The position numbers and the translations under genes are program-made. The notes under the pieces are model-generated. The model was given only the letters and a program-made list of their open reading frames with translations. It made no database searches and was not told where the DNA came from. From the human T2T-CHM13v2.0 reference genome, Homo sapiens: 64,000 nucleotides of DNA. This document shows positions 48,700 through 57,149 of the stretch, piece after piece. The first letter of the stretch is position 1. Every line of letters begins with the position of its first letter. The DNA is taken from the NCBI RefSeq assembly GCF_009914755.1, contig NC_060930.1; one strand, 5' to 3'.

Positions 48700-49470
48700 A
48701 AGTCAGTAAGCAAACCAAGAAAATAAATCCAGAGGAAAGATAATGCAGGAAATGCAAGAGCATTTCAAAATTAAAACCAAAATGCAAATGAACACATCAG
48801 GGAGATGGAAGTTTTTGCATCAATAAAAATGGATGATATTTATAAGGAAGAATTCTTAGTAGTTAAAATAACATAGTTGAAACAAAGATCTCTACAGAAG
48901 CTTGGAAGTAAACAAAATGTCAAGAAGATAAAAAATGTGAGATAAAAGCTAAGGACTGAGAGCATAAAACCAAGTGCTCAAATAACTAATTAATCTGAAT
49001 TCTATAAAGAGAATAGAAGGGAAGTCATGGAGATAAAGATATCTTTTAAAAAGAGACTTTTTCAGAACTAGAGTACACATTTCCAAATTGAAAGAACTCA
49101 AAAAGTACCAGCACATTTAATTTTTTAAATATCCAAAACAAAGCATATTGTCATGACATTTCAGAGCACTATGTTAAAGAGACAAACCCAAACAATTAAG
49201 GAAGAAGGAGAGAGGTGTCACATCCAAAGAAGGAAAATCAGAACAATACTGGGCTTTTCATCAACAGCACTGGCTGATTCAGGAGAAAATGATTTTTAAC
49301 CCAGAATTTTCTCATTTACAAATGAGAATGCAATAAAGATACTTTTAGATATGCAAAGAGTCACAAAATTTTTCTCCCTTTCTTAGCTGCTAGGAAGGTG
49401 TACAGAATAGAAAAAACATTCCATACAGGCCTTAGTGCCAGAATCTTGCAAATCAACTGTTTTCTTACAA
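48700..49470 (+). mobile_element. Old L1M ORF1-region fragment
   Basis: gcatattgtcatgacatttcaga..gaaaatgatttttaacccagaatt..aataaagatacttttagatatgcaa. Confidence 0.55.
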
Positions 49471-49630
49471 CTTAAATAATAGGAAGCTGATTTGAGTAAT
49501 AATAAAAGTCCAATCTCCTGCACAGCTAGCCCTGCATGAATTACTCTTTCTCTACTGAAATTCCCCTGTCTTGATAAATAGGCTCTGTCTAGGCAGCGGT
49601 CAAGGTGAACCCACTGGGCAGTTACAGATT

Positions 49631-49648
49631 CGGAGGCTTGTCCAGGAT
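49631..49648 (+). other. tRNA-Pro primer binding site (degenerate)
   Basis: cggaggcttgtccaggat versus TGGGGGCTCGTCCGGGAT: 14/18 match, two differences are CpG decay; lies 4 nt after the LTR CA. Confidence 0.8.
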
Positions 49649-50779
49649 TGCCCTTGTGGCTACCTACCTGTGATGTGGTAGCCTCTCTCTGGTGATGTAT
49701 CCAGAGGCCAGCTCAAGTGGCTGCCTAGTTCTCTTGGACTGGGAGATAATTCTGGTACTCTCTCTACTGGTGGAGCACTGCTGACCCAATGTGGATGGAT
49801 TTAATTGCAATAGAAAAGTATTCCTGGGGAGACATCCCTTAACTGTAGGCCTATCACATTATATCTGTCTGTAGTCCCATTGCAGGGTGTCTGGGTTGGT
49901 GAGCATTCTAGGTGCTATCAATGTCTCCTTTCTTCTCCTGACTTGTTCTGTAGACCCATGGTGGGGTGTCCGTTTGTAGCTCCACCATGGTGTTTCTGTC
50001 TCAGTTTGGCTCCTTTGTTGGGTCCAACTTGGATCTCCCTAAGTAATAGGAAGACTCTTGCTTTGGGAGACTTCTCTTCAATCAGGAAGATTTTAGGGAG
50101 ATTTATTAGATGAACAATAGGAGTATAGTTTGGAAGGGATTCTCTTGGAATTCTTAGTTAGGGATCTTGATTCAGAAGGCCTTCTGTACATCTCATCTTT
50201 GTGTGTGTTTGTATATGCGGGGGGGATGTAAGAAGGAATTGCTGACAAAAGTCCAGCACCCCTAACTCAGAGAACCCTCCTTACTTGTATGGTTACATTC
50301 AGTGAGCCCTGAAGAAAGCTCAACATGCCAAGGAAGTTCTTGGGATGACTATCTGATCTTCGCCTTGGCCAGAGACCATCCATTGTGAATTACTCTTTGG
50401 AGGCCATCCCTACCCACATGGAGTGGATCAAAGACAACAGGGATTAATGGGAGAAAGTCCAAGCTTTGTGAAGTTGAATACTGGGTGCTGAACAAAGTGA
50501 CTAGTGTCTGTTTTGTTATGTGTATTTTGCTTGGATGGAAAATGTTAATTTGGTTCCCCATGCAGCCCTTTGGGCAGCATCTTGCAAAATTAAGAATCTC
50601 TTGCCTATGGTTCCATGAAACAGAAAAGGATAATTTTCTTTTGTAATGTGGCTTGACCCCCATAGCTCTGGCACAGCAAGCAGGGTCATCTGTTCTTCTG
50701 GGAGCTGCAGAGAAAGGGAACCTGGAAATCTGGAATGCCAGCAAAAAGGGTAAGAAATTCTTACCACCCAAGTTTCTGG

Positions 50780-50781
50780 TC

Positions 50782-50843
<62 letters not shown>

Positions 50844-50854
50844 TGTGCGTGTGT
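50780..50854. repeat. Compound (CT)n(GT)n microsatellite
   Basis: Read directly; inside the ERV internal region. Confidence 0.95.
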
Positions 50855-51669
50855 AAATGGTAAATGTCACTGTTCGTCTCCTCCGCAAGGATATGATTAA
50901 TAGAAAACAAAATTTGTGAGACTAGTTTTAGGCTGTAGCAAATCTAGTGCACTTTGTGCTAAAAATTTGTCTTTCTGTAATGGAGAGAGGGTTATCCCAG
51001 GATAGAATGAGGGTTTAGGACCTCTATAAGCCTGCTTTTCAAGCCAGCCCAGCAAACTGGTCAGTTACAAACTTTGCTGCAGGTCCCTGAAACCAATACC
51101 AAATGAAATTTTTCTGTCTTGTTTTGTGTCCTTAAGAGCTTAACCTTGTAACCATGTAGGGATACTATCTCTTGATTTCTCCCATCCAGAGGACAGGAAT
51201 TTTAGGACACATGTCACAATTAACCCTAAAAATTATCTTGAGCACTTAAGAGTCTTTGCAAGCTTGAAATTGGCTGCTCTTCTGGGAATAGCAATAGAAA
51301 CTGCTCAATGCTGTCTAGCTCAGTAGCTAAACAGCTCAGTAGCCTCTGGTTGTTTATGTAACTTTGCCATTTATTGAGTGTTCCCCTCGCCCACCCCCGC
51401 CATTAATAGCTTCTGATTTCCTGTCTTGGGTTTTCCTCCCTCTGAACTACCTTTGGGGATATTCTAATTTTTGTAAAGAAAAAAAAACTGCTTACCATCT
51501 ATTTGAGACAGTTTATGCATCCATCGTTAAGTCATAGCCTTTGTTAAAACCTACTCATTTTGCATGGGAGGTTATCTGTGGTAAAGTTAAAAAGCCAGAA
51601 ATATTGACTCTCTGTCCTAACTAGAGTCTGGTAATAAGAGATTTAAAAGGATTTTTTTTCTAAAAAGCT

Positions 51670-52033
51670 TGTATTAGTTTATTCTCACACTGCTAAAAAG
51701 ATATACCTGATACTGGATAATTTATGGGTTAAAAAAGGTTTAATTGACTCACAGTTCCACATGGCTGGGGAGGCCTCACAATCATGGCAGATGGCAAAAG
51801 AGGAGCAAGGTCACGTCTTACATGGCAGCAGGCAAGAGAGCATGTGTAGGGAACTCTTCTTTTATAAAACCATCAGATCTCATAAGACTTATTCACTATC
51901 ATGAGAACAGCATGGGAAAGACCCACCTCCATGATTCAATTACCTCCCACCACAGCCCTCCCATGACACATGGGAATTATGGGAGCTACAATTCAAGATG
52001 AGATTTGGGTGGGTACATAGCAAAACCATATCA
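51670..52033 (-). mobile_element. THE1 solo LTR nested in the ERV internal region
   Basis: tgtattagt...aaaccatatca; TSD aagct/gaact. Confidence 0.92.
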
Positions 52034-55000
52034 GAACTCTATGGTTAAAATCAGCTTAATTAAAAACAGATATCCAAGCTACATGTATTTAAGAGGGCTT
52101 TATCTTTTTTTATCTTCTTGAATCGTGTTTTCCTGAAAAAAATTTTCTTCTCAGTGGACTGAATTGTTTTTCTCCATTTTGTCATCTTGCCACTCTTGAT
52201 GTAAACATGAGAGAACCTATGATAAATTCTAACAGCTTGGGGACTTCTGGCCAAAAGCAGAGGAGTCTACACAGACCCCATTCTGGGGAAAAACAACAAC
52301 AACTACAAAACCTGTTTTCTTCATGGAACCCCAGGAATTAGAAACAAAAATAGGTCCCTCTCAAAATCTAAGGCTCTGTTCTGTTTTGCACTGCATTATC
52401 TGATTTTTTTTTTTTACTTTGGGGAGTATCAAAAATTACTTTGCATTATGGGAGAGCTTTAGCCTTGGTGTGTAATAGCTAGGTAAAAAAAAACATATAC
52501 TCTAAAAAATGGCTAGTGTCAGTTATAAAGAGATACTTAGATCTTTGCATGCTTGGATCAGAGAAGCATGCTCTTGACCACCTGGAAGATACAGAAACAT
52601 CCCCAAACCCCACTGAGAGATGAGACTCCCATGGGGGATGGGCTGATTACAAAATGGGCTGATTGTCTTTGGGTTGCCTCGCAATTAAATGTATGATAGA
52701 AGCATTGCACTATCTTCTCCCATAGTATTTCCCTTCTTTGGGGGGATCCAGGATTCAGTATAAAATGGCACACTTAATTTTGGGGATCTGTCTTTGCCTT
52801 CCAGGTGTACCTGCTTATTAGGCCCTAGAAACTGCATATATTCCTGGCCCTGCTCCTCCAAGGGCTCCACCCTGAAACTAGTAATCCAATTAAGAAACTG
52901 GCAAATAAAAAATCTTACAAGTGCTGAATCTTCTGTCTGTCTGTCTATGTATTTATATATGTTGTATGTGTGATGTTTATATTTTAAAAGCTCTGATTAA
53001 TTGGCTTAGAAAAATAAACATTTAAATCAAATATTTTGTCTGACTAATAGAAACTTTAATGCCTTTTTTCACATGACTTTAATAATCTTTTGGAAATAAA
53101 GACAGTTTTAAAGATCATTGGTAAAATAAAAATGTCTTCAAAATGTAGACATTCGGTCTAAATTTAAGGTTAGATATCAGATGTTCTAAATGCTTCAAGG
53201 TCATAAATTGCTTCTTTGACTTTTGAAAATTGTTCAATGTATCTACCTTGGAGCATGCATTAGATTATAGATAAGGCCTGGGGACATATGGAGAGCCATG
53301 CCCCCTAGCCATGCTACAAAAAATCAGACACTTCTGTCTGATGTCCTAGGCTCCACACCTAATACATAATTAAAATCACTTACTTATCAGGTTTTTCATC
53401 AAAAATAAAGGATGCTAAGAGTAAACATTCTAACATGTAATTGAGACTACTGGAGAAACCATTTTATGTATAAGGTTGCAAGGTACAGAAGGAAAGCAGA
53501 ATGTAATCTTGGTGGGAGATTATAAGAAGGTATGGGAATATGGTTTTTGTTAAAGATAATGTAATTTTGTCTAGTTCAGAGAGTTTTTATAGATTCTCTT
53601 AACCTAAAAGAATAATGGGACAAAACTGAAGGTTGAAGCAAGTTGAAAAGGATTTGTAACGGGTTGATCTTGTAAAAAAAAAAAAAGTTCTGTGGGTATA
53701 AACAACTTGGCTAAGATTTGAAGGATATTATTTAGCTTTTCTCCATTTGTTAAAACATTAAAATCATGCTGATGTGGGGCCAGAATCTGGGCCCGTGTGT
53801 CTGGATCCATCAATTTTCTAAGGAACAGGGTTTGTTTCTGCTGTTTAATGGAAAATTGTAAAGGATTCTAAAGAGTTTATGAAAATCTTATATTATGGTC
53901 AAACTAAAACTGGATATATTTATAAAATTTTATTAAAAACTAGCATTATTACTAAAGATGCACTATTGCAAACATGGAATTTGGTTTTTCCTTTTGAAAA
54001 AGATTTTTATGTAACATTGAAAGACAATGAAATATTTTTGTTTGCCTTTTAAGTAAGCTACAAAAAATGGGAAAAGGAGAGAGAGAAGAGACAGATTCAG
54101 TTGGCCTCATACTATTGTCATCAGGTCTTGTTGTTTGGAAAGTTAAGTCCTCTATCAGAGTAAAGGTTTTTCTTTTTAAAAAATTTTTGGGTTATCATTT
54201 TGGCCAAATGAATGACTTATGGTGACCTGAGATTCTATTTTGTAATATCCAGTGTCTTAAACTTTTGCTATTTGACAAACTTTCCAAAATCAAATTATAA
54301 ATTATGTCTATTTCTAAGCTAATCTGTTCAATATTAGGTCCTCTAAAGTCCAAAAATGACATTTGGCTTATTTGGTACAGAAATCATACAGGAAGCATTG
54401 CCAAATATGAAAGGTGTTTGGCTTTCTTTAGACTATATTTGTGTAAATGTATTATTGGTATATGTTCCAAAATTATGTGAAACTCCTATAATTCTGATAT
54501 GATTTAGTATATGTTATCAGCAATCATTATAATTGTTATGCTAAATTATTGTGTGCCACAGAAGTAACAAATTTTCTTATTGTGTCTTTAACTGTGGCTG
54601 CCCTAAGGCTTTTTGTCATTCATAGGCAATTGTTTTATTGTGACCCTCTTCAAATGGTGGTCTTATAATCAGCTATTAAACTTTTACAGGTGTTTTTGAA
54701 TGGAAGTTTCTGATAACTTTGGAGATTATGACATTAGAATAAAGGAAAAAAACTTACAGGACTCCTATGAAGAGCTGAAATGTTCATGAATATCAAGCAG
54801 AACAGGATTTAGCTGAATGGACTGAACTAATAGAAAACTGAAGTAATATTTTTTGAATATTTTGCTTAAAACATTGCTGATCCTTTTTGTTTTCCAGAGT
54901 CAAGAAAACTTTTCTTTTGAGCTATTTACAACTTTTAACAATTGAGTAAAATATACGTCTGTGAACAAAATTTGGAGCATATTTGTTTCTCTACCTGATT

Positions 55001-55270
55001 TCTCCAGAACTTGGAAACTATTTACACTGCACTTGATGGATCAGCTGCCACCATCTAGATTGATAAACTGGCTCATCTGATATTGTGGTCACCCACCCAG
55101 GAACTGACTCAGTGCCAGAGGAGAGCTTCCACTTCCTATGATTTCATCTCCAGCCCAACCAGTCAGCACTCTTGATTCACTGGTATTCCCTCATCCACCA
55201 AATTATCTTTAAAAACTCTGATCCCCAACTGCCTAGGAAGACTCATTTGAGTAATAACAAAACTCTGGTC

Positions 55271-55294
55271 ACACACACACGCACACACACACAC

Positions 55295-55330
<36 letters not shown>
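55271..55330. repeat. (CA)n(AAT)n compound microsatellite
   Basis: About 12 CA and 12 AAT units. Confidence 0.95.
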
Positions 55331-55331
<1 letters not shown>

Positions 55332-56750
55332 GCTCATCTATGATAGTAAAAAAGAAAAATAATCTATCTTTCAGTGACGGATAAAGACAGTTTTAAGCCT
55401 GTTAAAATTACAAGGTCATCAAAGTAGAAAATAAAAAGTGATAGAGTTGTATTGAAAAGAATAGAAAAGAAGGGTGGTATGAGATAAATTTTTATCCATT
55501 AGGAAAATTTTATAGATATGTTTGAGATTGATATTCAAAAATAATTTTAAAACATATCTTCATATACCTATAATAAACATGTCTATATATGTTTGTAATA
55601 GTAAACATATCTTCATATGCCTACAATTAGGGTTTGGATCTATAATGACATGAAGAAATTGTCTGTTCCTGTTCCCTACCTTCCCATAGGAGAGAAGAAT
55701 CTCTCTTCAAAGAGCAGATCAAGAGAGATGCTTTAAAACCACAGCAAGTTTTCAGAGGATGTCCATTTTAGCGCCAAAATTTAAATACGGGGAGGACGCT
55801 ATGGTGCCAAAGGCCCCAGAAAGGTGCACTTGAAGTGGGACACTTGGAACCCCAACTGTCAATGCTGGTGAGTCAGCCTCTGAAAGAGCAGGATTCAATT
55901 AACCTATTGACTGTAGAGATATGTGAGCAAAGCAGAACTAGAATAAATATTGAGAAAATGCTAAAACTTAGAGCATACGGCACTAAGTATGGTTCAGCTC
56001 CACCCGATGGGTAGGTAGGTCCAGCAGGGTATCAACAGGGATATCTTGGTCATTTCCTCCTCTTCAGGTGGCACAGAAAACTAGCTGGGAGAAAGAATAA
56101 CAGACTCTAATCCTGATTATAGGTGTCATTTCCACCAACACTCTAACCAAATGTGTTTTGGAAAATCTGAGAGGCACAAGAAGTGGGGTGTGCTGAGAGC
56201 CTACCAGTCAGATGTAGCTTCTTATTCAGTGGACTGAAGCACAAACTGCTAAAGCAAGCCTTCCTGGCTAAACTCAAATTCAGAAGACCTAAGGGGAATT
56301 TTTATATCTGAGATCTAAGGTTATCACTCACTATATTCCTGAAACAGTTCTCTCAAAGTCCCCGATGGAATTGTGAGAATTATCTGGACCCCAAGTTGGA
56401 TGAGAACTGCAGAAAGCTCTTTGCTATTATTAGTCAAGCCATAGATGTCTAGAAACACATGCTTTTTTTTCTGAGTGACATACTCTGCAAACACCAAGCT
56501 TGGTGAGTGAGAGGCATCTCAGCAGGCACAGCTGTAGTGATTTCAGATAGCACATTGCAGTGTACTTTCTTCAGATTATATTACACATACAGACACAGAC
56601 ACATGCAATTCACATCATTCTGTAACATCTGCATGAATCAGAGGAAAAAGGCAATGCTATAATTGAATATGAAATATAAAACAATAGGACATAGATACAG
56701 GGTGCACAATTTGTGATTCACAAGTCTGAGTTCTATTTGTCCTGCAACAA

Positions 56751-57149
56751 TGTGTTAGGCCATTCTTGCATTGTTATAAAGAGATATATGAGACTGGGTA
56801 TTTTATAATAAAAAGGGTTTAATTGGCTCATGGTTTTGCAGGCTGTAGAAGCATGAGCCAATTAAACCTTTTTTCTGGCATCTGCTTCTGGGGAGGCCTC
56901 AAGGAGCTTTCATTCATTGCGGAAGGTGATGCGGGAGGAGGCACATCAAATGGTGAAAACAAGAGCAAGAGAGTGTTGGGGGCAGAGGAAGTGCCATACA
57001 CTTTTAAACAACCAGATTTCACAATAACTCACTCACTATTGCAAAGACAGCACCAAACCATGAGAGATTCACCCCCATGACCCTAACACCTCCCACCAGG
57101 CCCCACCCAATGTGAAATTTGGGTAAGGACAAATATCCTAACTATATCA
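56751..57149 (-). mobile_element. MSTA/MSTA1-like solo LTR
   Basis: tgtgttaggccattcttgcattg ... aactatatca; TSD aacaa/aacag. Confidence 0.88.

What the first reader, a model, noticed from the sequence alone, without database searches (positions are those of the whole stretch)
49474..55332. ERV that is not a provirus: L1-retroposed processed RNA of an LTR8/HUERS-P1-type element
Seen: (1) The element begins abruptly at gaagctgatttgagtaataataaaag (49483) with no U3, then runs through U5 to CA and a tRNA-Pro PBS. (2) The same ~35-nt segment recurs at the far end (ggaagactcatttgagtaataacaaaac, 55236-55270), ~25 nt after a TATA-like tttaaaaa, and there is no U5 after it. (3) An A-rich tail follows. 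(4) aataatag flanks both ends (49475-49482 and 55325-55332), and the left copy follows an L1-endonuclease-like tt|aaat. This R-U5...U3-R-tail layout is the structure established for HERV-W processed pseudogenes. Inference: L1 machinery mobilised a non-coding MER4-group ERV RNA, and this copy is a fossil map of the LTR8 TSS and poly(A) site.
Basis: partly seen in the sequence, partly recalled or inferred. Interest (0 to 1): 0.8.

Follow-up and report, generated by a model that had tools for sequence, protein, structure and literature searches.

The report
LINE-1-copied RNA of LTR8/HUERS-P1 retrovirus
This 5.85-kb stretch is a fossil DNA copy of the RNA of an old endogenous retrovirus (LTR8/HUERS-P1) that was pasted in by LINE-1, and about a third of sampled relatives look the same, although reviews name only HERV-W for this.

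Summary
Against full LTRs elsewhere in the genome, the element (49483-55332) begins at the start of R, with no U3. It ends at the end of R, with no U5. A (CA)13(AAT)12 tail follows, and AATAATAG flanks both ends after TT|A.

The family label is supported. A locus that a paper annotates as LTR8/HUERS-P1 aligns at 79-85% with the window's R-U5-leader and its U3-R.

The copy is not unique. Of 37 other leader-bearing copies sampled, 14 start at the same base of R, 21 have U3 and 2 are otherwise truncated. Five R-start siblings were traced to their 3' ends. All stop 15-20 nt after AATAAA, carry A-rich tails and have 13-17-nt target-site duplications.

An L1-endonuclease-like site lies 9-19 nt upstream in 12 of 15 R-start copies.

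Reviews read here call HERV-W the sole L1-mobilised HERV group. No empty site could be checked.

The parts
49472..49482 (+). L1-endonuclease-like target TT|AAATAATAG; 5' copy of the target-site duplication (AATAATAG, 49475-49482)
   Evidence: Read directly. The same 8-mer lies at 55325-55332. The motif class is found in 12 of 15 R-start copies.
49483..49522 (+). 5' R (~40 nt), starting at the inferred transcription start; AATAAA at 49501-49506
   Evidence: In full LTRs the position equivalent to 49487 lies ~215 nt into the stretch matched by 55024-55270. Fourteen other copies start at this base.
49523..49626 (+). U5, ending in TTACA
   Evidence: Aligns at 78-88% to the 3' part of full LTRs in 24 of 29 loci and to the THOLE LTR8.
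49631..49648 (+). Degenerate primer-binding site of the tRNA-Pro type
   Evidence: Matches 13 of 18 positions of the PBS of the THOLE HUERS-P1 copy, L082 (counted by eye). PMC10602909 passages list HUERS-P1-int among ERVs with PBS-Pro.
49649..51668 (+). HUERS-P1 leader and internal region, 5' part, collinear with relatives; contains a (TC)n(TG)n run at 50780-50854
   Evidence: Collinear with 24-29 of 29 loci to ~51280; coverage then falls only as the held loci end. TRF result.
51669..52032 (-). Nested solo LTR of THE1/MaLR type (name recalled, not tested), inserted after or into the source
   Evidence: In L043 the positions equivalent to 51644 and 52033 are 19 nt apart, so that copy is empty at this site. 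Sequence read.
52033..55022 (+). Rest of the internal region. Only 54560-55023 was checked against relatives, and it ends at a deletion junction
   Evidence: 54560-55023 matches the corresponding place in siblings L032, L047, L039 and L051. No Pfam retroviral domain in the frames tested.
55017..55022 (+). Junction of a ~1.34-kb deletion with TATTT microhomology; PPT and first ~340 nt of U3 missing
   Evidence: Window compared with the sibling internal sequence (L087) and the sibling U3 (L081). LTR extent.
55023..55236 (+). Last ~215 nt of U3, with TATA-like TTTAAAAA at 55208-55215
   Evidence: 82-85% identity to 29 LTR copies. Corresponds to LTR positions ~341-563 of a ~700-nt slice.
55237..55270 (+). 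3' R, with AATAAC at 55253-55258; stops about 6 nt short of the usual cleavage point
   Evidence: Siblings end at ...TCTCC(N)GC or a few bases later.
55270..55331 (+). Tail: (CA)13 then (AAT)12, taken to be a decayed poly(A) tail
   Evidence: TRF. Sibling L038 has an AAAT-type tail; others have A7, A8, A-rich ~35 nt and AAATTAAAAAAAA.
55325..55332 (+). 3' copy of the target-site duplication AATAATAG
   Evidence: It overlaps the end of the AAT array.

Best explanation
The stretch is a processed pseudogene of an LTR8/HUERS-P1 endogenous retrovirus.

Inferred sequence of events:
1. A source provirus was transcribed from its 5' LTR, starting about 29 nt downstream of the TTAAAAA box.
2. The RNA was cleaved and polyadenylated in the 3' LTR, about 15-20 nt after AATAAA.
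3. LINE-1 ORF2 protein nicked the target at TT|AAATAATAG, primed on the poly(A) tail and copied the whole RNA.

The result has R-U5-PBS-internal-U3-R-tail flanked by an 8-9-nt duplication, and no promoter at its 5' end.

Later events:
- The tail decayed into (CA)n and (AAT)n.
- A THE1-like LTR was inserted.
- About 1.34 kb was lost at a TATTT microhomology. This could also have happened during reverse transcription.

Shown: the architecture against full LTRs, the family assignment, and the same end points with tails, TSDs and target motifs in sibling copies.

Inferred: that L1 was the enzyme, that the tail was once poly(A), and the order of the later events.
For: LTR structure. In 24 of 29 other LTR loci the stretch matching 55024-55265/79 is directly followed, with a 25-38-nt overlap, by the stretch matching 49487-49626. 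The two window pieces are therefore the two halves of one LTR that share only R. The full LTR is ~675-700 nt, against 691 bp for LTR8 in PMC6862598.

No remnants. There is no other LTR8 piece in the window.

Family. The THOLE LTR8/HUERS-P1 locus aligns at 80% over 409 nt to 49487-49893, and at 79-82% to the window's U3-R.

5' census. Of 37 other leader-bearing copies, 14 start at the same base with unrelated upstream DNA, 21 have U3, and 2 are otherwise truncated.

Both ends of five siblings:
- L032: A7 tail, ~16-nt TSD.
- L038: AAAT-type tail, 13-nt TSD.
- L047: A8 tail, ~16-nt TSD.
- L057: long A-rich tail, ~17-nt TSD.
- L060: 14-15-nt TSD after TT|AAAAA.

Independent sample of 3' ends. Of 29 LTR hits, 4 end in R plus an A-rich tail. 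L005 and L015 share flanks and count as one event; the others are L008 and L024. One more (L013) ends near R without a tail. L008 is 5'-truncated inside U3 and has a ~12-nt TSD.

Target motif. An EN-like motif lies 9-19 nt upstream in 12 of 15 R-start copies, against 8.3% background in the window (binomial 4e-11). Strict TTAAAA occurs in 7 of 15.
Against: - The window copy's own tail is not poly(A).
- Its TSD is only 8 nt and coincides with the repeat unit of the adjacent AAT array.
- The 3' R stops ~6 nt before the usual cleavage point, under the CA run.
- U3 is not intact: a break at 55017-55022 separates the body from the U3-R piece, so a two-event origin is not formally excluded.
- The 5' flank is single-copy in this genome and no other primate genome was available, so target contiguity (the empty site) is untested.
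- The EN motif pattern was written after seeing the flanks, so its P value is optimistic.
- The 3' ends of 4 R-start siblings (L034, L036, L042, L052) were not found at the expected distance, and that of L051 is interrupted by an Alu.
Confidence: 0.86

Rival explanations
1. An ordinary integrase-made provirus lost the U3 of its 5' LTR and the U5 of its 3' LTR through unrelated deletions. The AATAATAG match is chance next to a microsatellite.
For: This copy has clearly suffered rearrangement: a ~1.34-kb deletion and a nested LTR. The TSD overlaps the AAT array.
Against: Both truncation points fall on the R boundaries. The same 5' point is used by 14 other copies, and the same 3' region by at least 8. 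No 4-6-nt integrase-type duplication or LTR remnant is seen beyond the ends.
Confidence: 0.06
2. Two separate events produced the stretch. A copy with R-U5 and internal sequence lies next to an independent, heavily 5'-truncated U3-R-tail retrocopy (like L008 or L005) that landed beside it.
For: The break at 55017-55022 separates the two pieces. Short U3-R-poly(A) retrocopies of this family exist.
Against: The matching 8-mers sit at the outer ends of the whole 5.85 kb. The junction shows TATTT microhomology between sequences that lie 1.34 kb apart in siblings, which is typical of a deletion. Both pieces are in the same orientation and order. Both R copies begin GAAG, where most relatives have GAGA.
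Confidence: 0.04
3. The RNA was copied and inserted by a route other than L1. Examples are capture of an ERV cDNA at a double-strand break, or copying by another reverse transcriptase.
For: No enzyme can be read from the sequence, and the window copy's tail and TSD are weak.
Against: TT|AAAA-type sites, 13-17-nt TSDs and A-rich tails in siblings are the L1 signature described for HERV-W pseudogenes (PMC5537654 passages).
Confidence: 0.04

Closest known systems
HERV-W (LTR17/HERV17) processed pseudogenes made by LINE-1. Pavlicek 2002 and Costas 2002 were seen only as cited; Grandi 2016 (PMC5016936) and Grandi & Tramontano 2017 (PMC5537654) were read as passages.
   Same: A 5' LTR reduced to R-U5, a 3' LTR reduced to U3-R, an A-rich tail, a TT/AAAA target and a TSD of 5-15+ nt. 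Many copies per family, mixed with true proviruses.
   Different: - A different supergroup (HUERSP, LTR8) with a PBS of the Pro type.
- Older copies: terminal branches have a median of 0.11 changes per site.
- R is ~40 nt, against 71 nt (positions 256-326) in LTR17.
- No retroviral protein domain was detected in the frames tested.
- The share of the processed type was 14 of 37 at the 5' end, against 135 of 213 reported for HERV-W.
Cellular processed pseudogenes, and L1-mobilised non-autonomous elements (Alu, SVA) and 'retro-DNAs' (PMC11195612 passages)
   Same: Trans-mobilisation of a polyadenylated RNA by L1, with TSDs, A-rich tails, occasional 5' truncation (L008, L005) and loss of the upstream promoter.
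   Different: The template is a full-length retroviral genomic RNA. It carries its own promoter in the 3' U3, so each copy delivers a downstream-facing LTR promoter fragment.
Canonical LTR8/HUERS-P1 proviruses, such as the THOLE locus (PMC6862598)
   Same: The same LTR, PBS and leader sequence at 79-85% identity.
   Different: The window copy lacks 5' U3 and 3' U5, has L1-type flanks, and has lost the PPT and the first ~340 nt of U3.

Membership tests
L1-made processed pseudogene of an ERV (criteria as listed for HERV-W in PMC5537654) | 5' LTR is R-U5 only | tested here: met
   Full LTRs match the window's 5' end only from 49487 onward; no U3 anywhere upstream.
L1-made processed pseudogene of an ERV (criteria as listed for HERV-W in PMC5537654) | 3' LTR is U3-R only | tested here: met
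   The match ends at 55265-55279, with no U5 downstream. U3 is also 5'-truncated by a separate deletion.
L1-made processed pseudogene of an ERV (criteria as listed for HERV-W in PMC5537654) | Poly(A) tail after R | tested here: inconclusive
   The window has (CA)13(AAT)12, not poly(A). Five siblings and three further 3' ends have A-rich tails.
L1-made processed pseudogene of an ERV (criteria as listed for HERV-W in PMC5537654) | TT/AAAA-type insertion motif and a TSD of 5-15 nt | tested here: met
   TT|AAATAATAG, with an exact 8-nt duplicate that overlaps the AAT array. The motif is found in 12 of 15 R-start copies.
L1-made processed pseudogene of an ERV (criteria as listed for HERV-W in PMC5537654) | Empty, contiguous target site in an outgroup genome | not testable with these tools
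   No other primate genome is held, and the 5' flank is single-copy. By my own reading of the printed flanks, those of siblings L032 and L057 each look like two adjacent parts of one older repeat. The repeat names are recalled, not tested.
LTR8/HUERS-P1 | LTR homologous to a RepeatMasker-annotated LTR8 | tested here: met
   The THOLE-locus LTR8 (L082) aligns at 79-85% to the window's U3-R and R-U5, and at 80-84% to a full LTR of the same set, L010. LTR length ~675-700 nt against 691 bp.
LTR8/HUERS-P1 | PBS of the tRNA-Pro type, followed by the HUERS-P1 leader | tested here: met
   80% identity over 409 nt, including the PBS and leader. The PBS matches 13 of 18 positions of the THOLE copy.
LTR8/HUERS-P1 | Assignment by Dfam/RepeatMasker, including subfamily (LTR8, 8A, 8B) | not testable with these tools
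HERV-W (LTR17/HERV17) | LTR17 and HERV17 sequence similarity | not tested
   No HERV-W sequence was fetched. The assignment to LTR8 makes membership unlikely.

The most novel reading that the evidence does not exclude
LTR8/HUERS-P1 is a second, older human ERV group that LINE-1 amplified systematically. Roughly a third of its copies that keep the leader are retroposed genomic RNAs, made from several sources over the same period as true integrations. If so, L1 mobilisation of retroviral RNA is not a peculiarity of HERV-W. The shared end points would also give base-level transcription start and poly(A) sites of an extinct promoter.
Probability: 0.45. Interest if true: 0.65.

Novelty: new member of a known kind. 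Interest (0 to 1): 0.6.

Why it matters
Passages read here state that HERV-W is the sole HERV group mobilised by L1 and ask what limits the process to it (PMC5537654). Two further papers name only HERV-W (PMC6995185; PMC11195612).

A second group with the same signature, older and unrelated, would have several consequences:
- The search for a special feature of HERV-W RNA would lose much of its basis.
- Copy counts and LTR-divergence dating for HUERS-P1 would change, because processed copies have no paired LTRs.
- Many LTR8 annotations would be marked as promoterless at their 5' end.
- The TSS and poly(A) site of LTR8 would be known without expression data.

For this locus itself nothing functional follows. 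It lies in an intron of UFL1-AS1 on the opposite strand.

Tried and rejected
First reading of the LTR start. I first took the LTR to start at 55024, because all 39 other hits began between query positions 75 and 81, most at 75. That was wrong. It is the window's deletion junction. The true LTR starts ~340 nt further upstream in relatives.

5' truncation bias. The candidate counts were leader 105, internal 54560-55023 1637 and a U3 piece 1516. I considered reading these as an L1-type 5' truncation bias and dropped the idea. Of 14 relatives of the internal segment probed 1.35-1.85 kb downstream, only 4 had LTR8 there. The segment is therefore shared with another abundant repeat. First-look counts are also not copy numbers.

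Empty-site proxy. This failed because the 5' flank 49230-49482 is single-copy.

Sibling 3' ends. None was found at the expected distance for L034, L036, L042 and L052. That of L051 is broken by an Alu.

One source lineage or several. A tree of 29 R-U5-leader sequences was made from the window and 28 of the 29 loci; L045, truncated in the leader, was left out. It is star-like. The processed label needs 9 changes against 8.9 in shuffles, so there is no clustering.

Coding capacity. Pfam on 15 of 48 open frames of at least 45 aa gave only three chance-level hits, with E values of 0.014-0.035 and scores below the cut-offs.

Other closed routes. Pavlicek 2002 is not held.


Full report
**What is in the window**

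The sequence at 49472-49530 reads TT, AAATAATAG, then GAAGCTGATTTGAGTAATAATAAAAG.... AATAAA lies at 49501-49506. U5 ends in TTACA at 49622-49626, and a degenerate PBS lies at 49631-49648.

At the far end, TTTAAAAA lies at 55208-55215. It is followed 29 nt later by GAAGACTCATTTGAGTAATAACAAAACTCTGGTC at 55237-55270. After that come (CA)13 at 55270-55295 and (AAT)12.3 at 55295-55331. The array ends in AATAATAG at 55325-55332.

The repeat finder reports the R match as family D14: 49487-49510 against 55242-55265, 88% identical. The one qualification is that the tail is two microsatellites, not poly(A).

**Test against full LTRs**

The human genome is held as G000. The 3' piece 54950-55270 found 40 scored matches out of 3105 first-look candidates.

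In 24 of the 29 loci cut out, the stretch matching 55024-55265/79 runs straight on, with a 25-38-nt overlap, into the stretch matching 49487-49626. The two ends of the window element are therefore the two halves of one LTR, and they share only R.

I first misread 55024 as the LTR start. Comparison with the 3' part of a sibling (L081) showed that LTRs in 5', 3' and solo positions all begin ~340 nt further upstream. This gives a U3 of ~560 nt, an R of ~40 nt and a U5 of ~100 nt.

Three full LTRs and an annotated LTR8 hit the whole 64-kb window only at those two places. There is thus no U3 before the element and no U5 after it.

**Family**

PMC6862598 (abstract and passages) describes a RepeatMasker-annotated LTR8 of 691 bp with HUERS-P1-int at the THOLE locus, and prints primers. 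One primer has a single exact site in G000.

The 1.25 kb fetched there (L082) gave these alignments:

| L082 against | Identity |
|---|---|
| Window 49487-49893 (409 nt) | 80% |
| Window U3-R | 79-82% |
| Full LTR L010 | 80-84% |

PMC10602909 (passages) lists HUERS-P1-int among ERVs with PBS-Pro. The LTR8/HUERS-P1 label is therefore supported. The subfamily could not be set without Dfam.

- *Deletion.* The window junction reads ...GGAAACTATTT|ACACTGCACTTGATGG. A sibling's internal region continues differently after ...AACTATTT, and a sibling's U3 reads ...CCTTATTT before ACACTTGATGG. This is a deletion of ~1.34 kb (sibling distance 1,631 nt minus a 290-nt Alu). It removes the end of the internal region, the PPT and the first ~340 nt of U3. 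None of the other 39 hits crosses this junction, so the deletion looks private to this copy.
- *Nested LTR.* Positions 51669-52032 hold a nested LTR on the minus strand. I recall it as THE1-like. In L043 the two flanking positions are 19 nt apart.
- *Collinearity.* The body from 49487 to ~51660 is collinear with 24-29 of 29 relatives.

**The same structure recurs in the family**

The leader 49627-50100 found 105 candidates, of which 40 were scored. I examined the 5' side of 37 copies other than the window: 29 loci, and 8 small fetches. Two further scored hits lacked the 5' part of the query and were not fetched.

| 5' state | Copies (of 37) |
|---|---|
| Start at the base equivalent to 49483, with unrelated DNA upstream | 14 |
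| U3 present upstream | 21 |
| Starts inside R (L046) | 1 |
| Truncated in the leader (L045) | 1 |

Five R-start copies were followed to their 3' ends:

| Sibling | 3' end and tail | TSD / target site |
|---|---|---|
| L032 | ...TCTCCCGC + A7 | ~16 nt |
| L038 | ...CCTGCA + AAAT-type tail | AAAATCATTTATG, after TTTT\| |
| L047 | A8 | ~16 nt, after TT\|AAAAAC |
| L057 | ~35-nt A-rich tail | ~17 nt |
| L060 | AAATTAAAAAAAA | AAAAATCTAAACAG, after TT\| |

By my own reading of the printed flanks, those of L032 and L057 each look like adjacent parts of one older repeat. That would stand in for an empty site. The repeat names are recalled, not tested.

The LTR sample is independent. In it, 4 of 29 copies end in R plus an A-rich tail. 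L005 and L015 share flanks and count as one event; the others are L008 and L024. One more copy (L013) ends near R without a tail. L008 is cut off inside U3 and has a ~12-nt TSD, which looks like L1-type 5' truncation.

An EN-like motif lies 9-19 nt upstream of the start in 12 of 15 R-start copies, the window included. The background in the window is 8.3%, giving a binomial probability of 4e-11. The pattern was written after seeing the data. Strict TTAAAA occurs in 7 of 15.

**Results against, or left open**

- The 3' ends of L034, L036, L042 and L052 were not found where expected, and that of L051 is broken by an Alu.
- The window's own TSD is short and overlaps the AAT array.
- Its 5' flank is single-copy, and no outgroup genome is held, so the empty site is untested.

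**Mechanism**

The shared 5' end lies 29 nt after the first T of TTAAAAA. The shared 3' ends scatter over ~6 nt, about 15-20 nt after AATAAA. These are the distances expected for a Pol II start site and a cleavage site, which is established general knowledge.

The most likely history is:
1. The source provirus was transcribed.
2. The RNA was polyadenylated.
3. LINE-1 carried out target-primed reverse transcription at TT|AAAT.
4. The copy then decayed.

**Age and sources**

A tree of 29 R-U5-leader sequences is star-like. Processed and proviral copies are intermixed: 9 label changes against a shuffled mean of 8.9. Terminal branches have a median of 0.11, and the window's is 0.18.

PMC6995185 quotes 0.45% per million years for pairwise divergence. 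On that rate these branches are of the order of 50 My, and more for the window copy. This is crude. The upper figure sits badly with the statement, cited in PMC6862598, that the family is confined to higher primates.

**Literature**

Seven searches found no report of L1-made copies of HUERS-P1/LTR8 or of any HERV group other than W. Of the 16 papers that mention HUERS-P1, 15 were listed. I read passages of three of them and only titles and abstract starts of the rest. None of what I saw addresses this.

- PMC6995185 discusses L1-made copies only for ERV-W.
- PMC11195612 names only HERV-W.
[quoted passage not shown] It lists only 1 canonical and 3 non-canonical HUERSP1 chains.

Pavlicek 2002 and Costas 2002 were not readable here, and neither was any Repbase or Dfam note. 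Supplements were not opened. Prior mention there cannot be excluded.

**Verdict**

The element is a new member of a known kind. The family-wide extent is the interesting part.

Noticed in passing
window 54560-55023: This internal segment has 1637 first-look relatives in the genome, against 105 for the leader. All 20 top relatives sampled were fetched 170-450 nt beyond the segment, and 17 of them continue collinearly there. Of 14 probed 1.35-1.85 kb downstream, only 4 have LTR8 there. The segment seems shared with another, more abundant repeat family that I could not name.
   Followed up: partly
window 51669-52032 (minus strand); also 56809-56901: A nested solo LTR lies inside the element. I recall it as THE1/MaLR-like. 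Relative L043 is empty at this site. A fragment of a similar repeat lies 1.5 kb downstream of the element (repeat finder families D9 and D10).
   Followed up: partly
L005 (G000:C10:50779586-50782829) and L015 (G000:C10:46841531-46844774): Two chr10 loci carry the same U3-R-poly(A) LTR8 retrocopy with near-identical flanks on both sides. They appear to be one retroposition later copied by a segmental duplication.
   Followed up: no
L072 (G000:C2:33662977-33663257): The HUERS-P1 copy behind L039 has an LTR8 in inverted orientation inserted in its 3' internal region.
   Followed up: no
L104 (G000:C6:122818549-122819049): One relative of the internal segment carries an inverted copy of window 54898-55000 about 1.4 kb downstream. 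This could be a head-to-head pair or an inverted repeat of the unnamed family.
   Followed up: no
window 50780-50854: A (TC)23 run abuts (TG)14 inside the internal region of the element (TRF).
   Followed up: no
window 49483-49489 and 55237-55243: Both R copies of the window element begin GAAG, where most relatives have GAGA. This small shared variant fits one source RNA. L058 shows the same variant.
   Followed up: no
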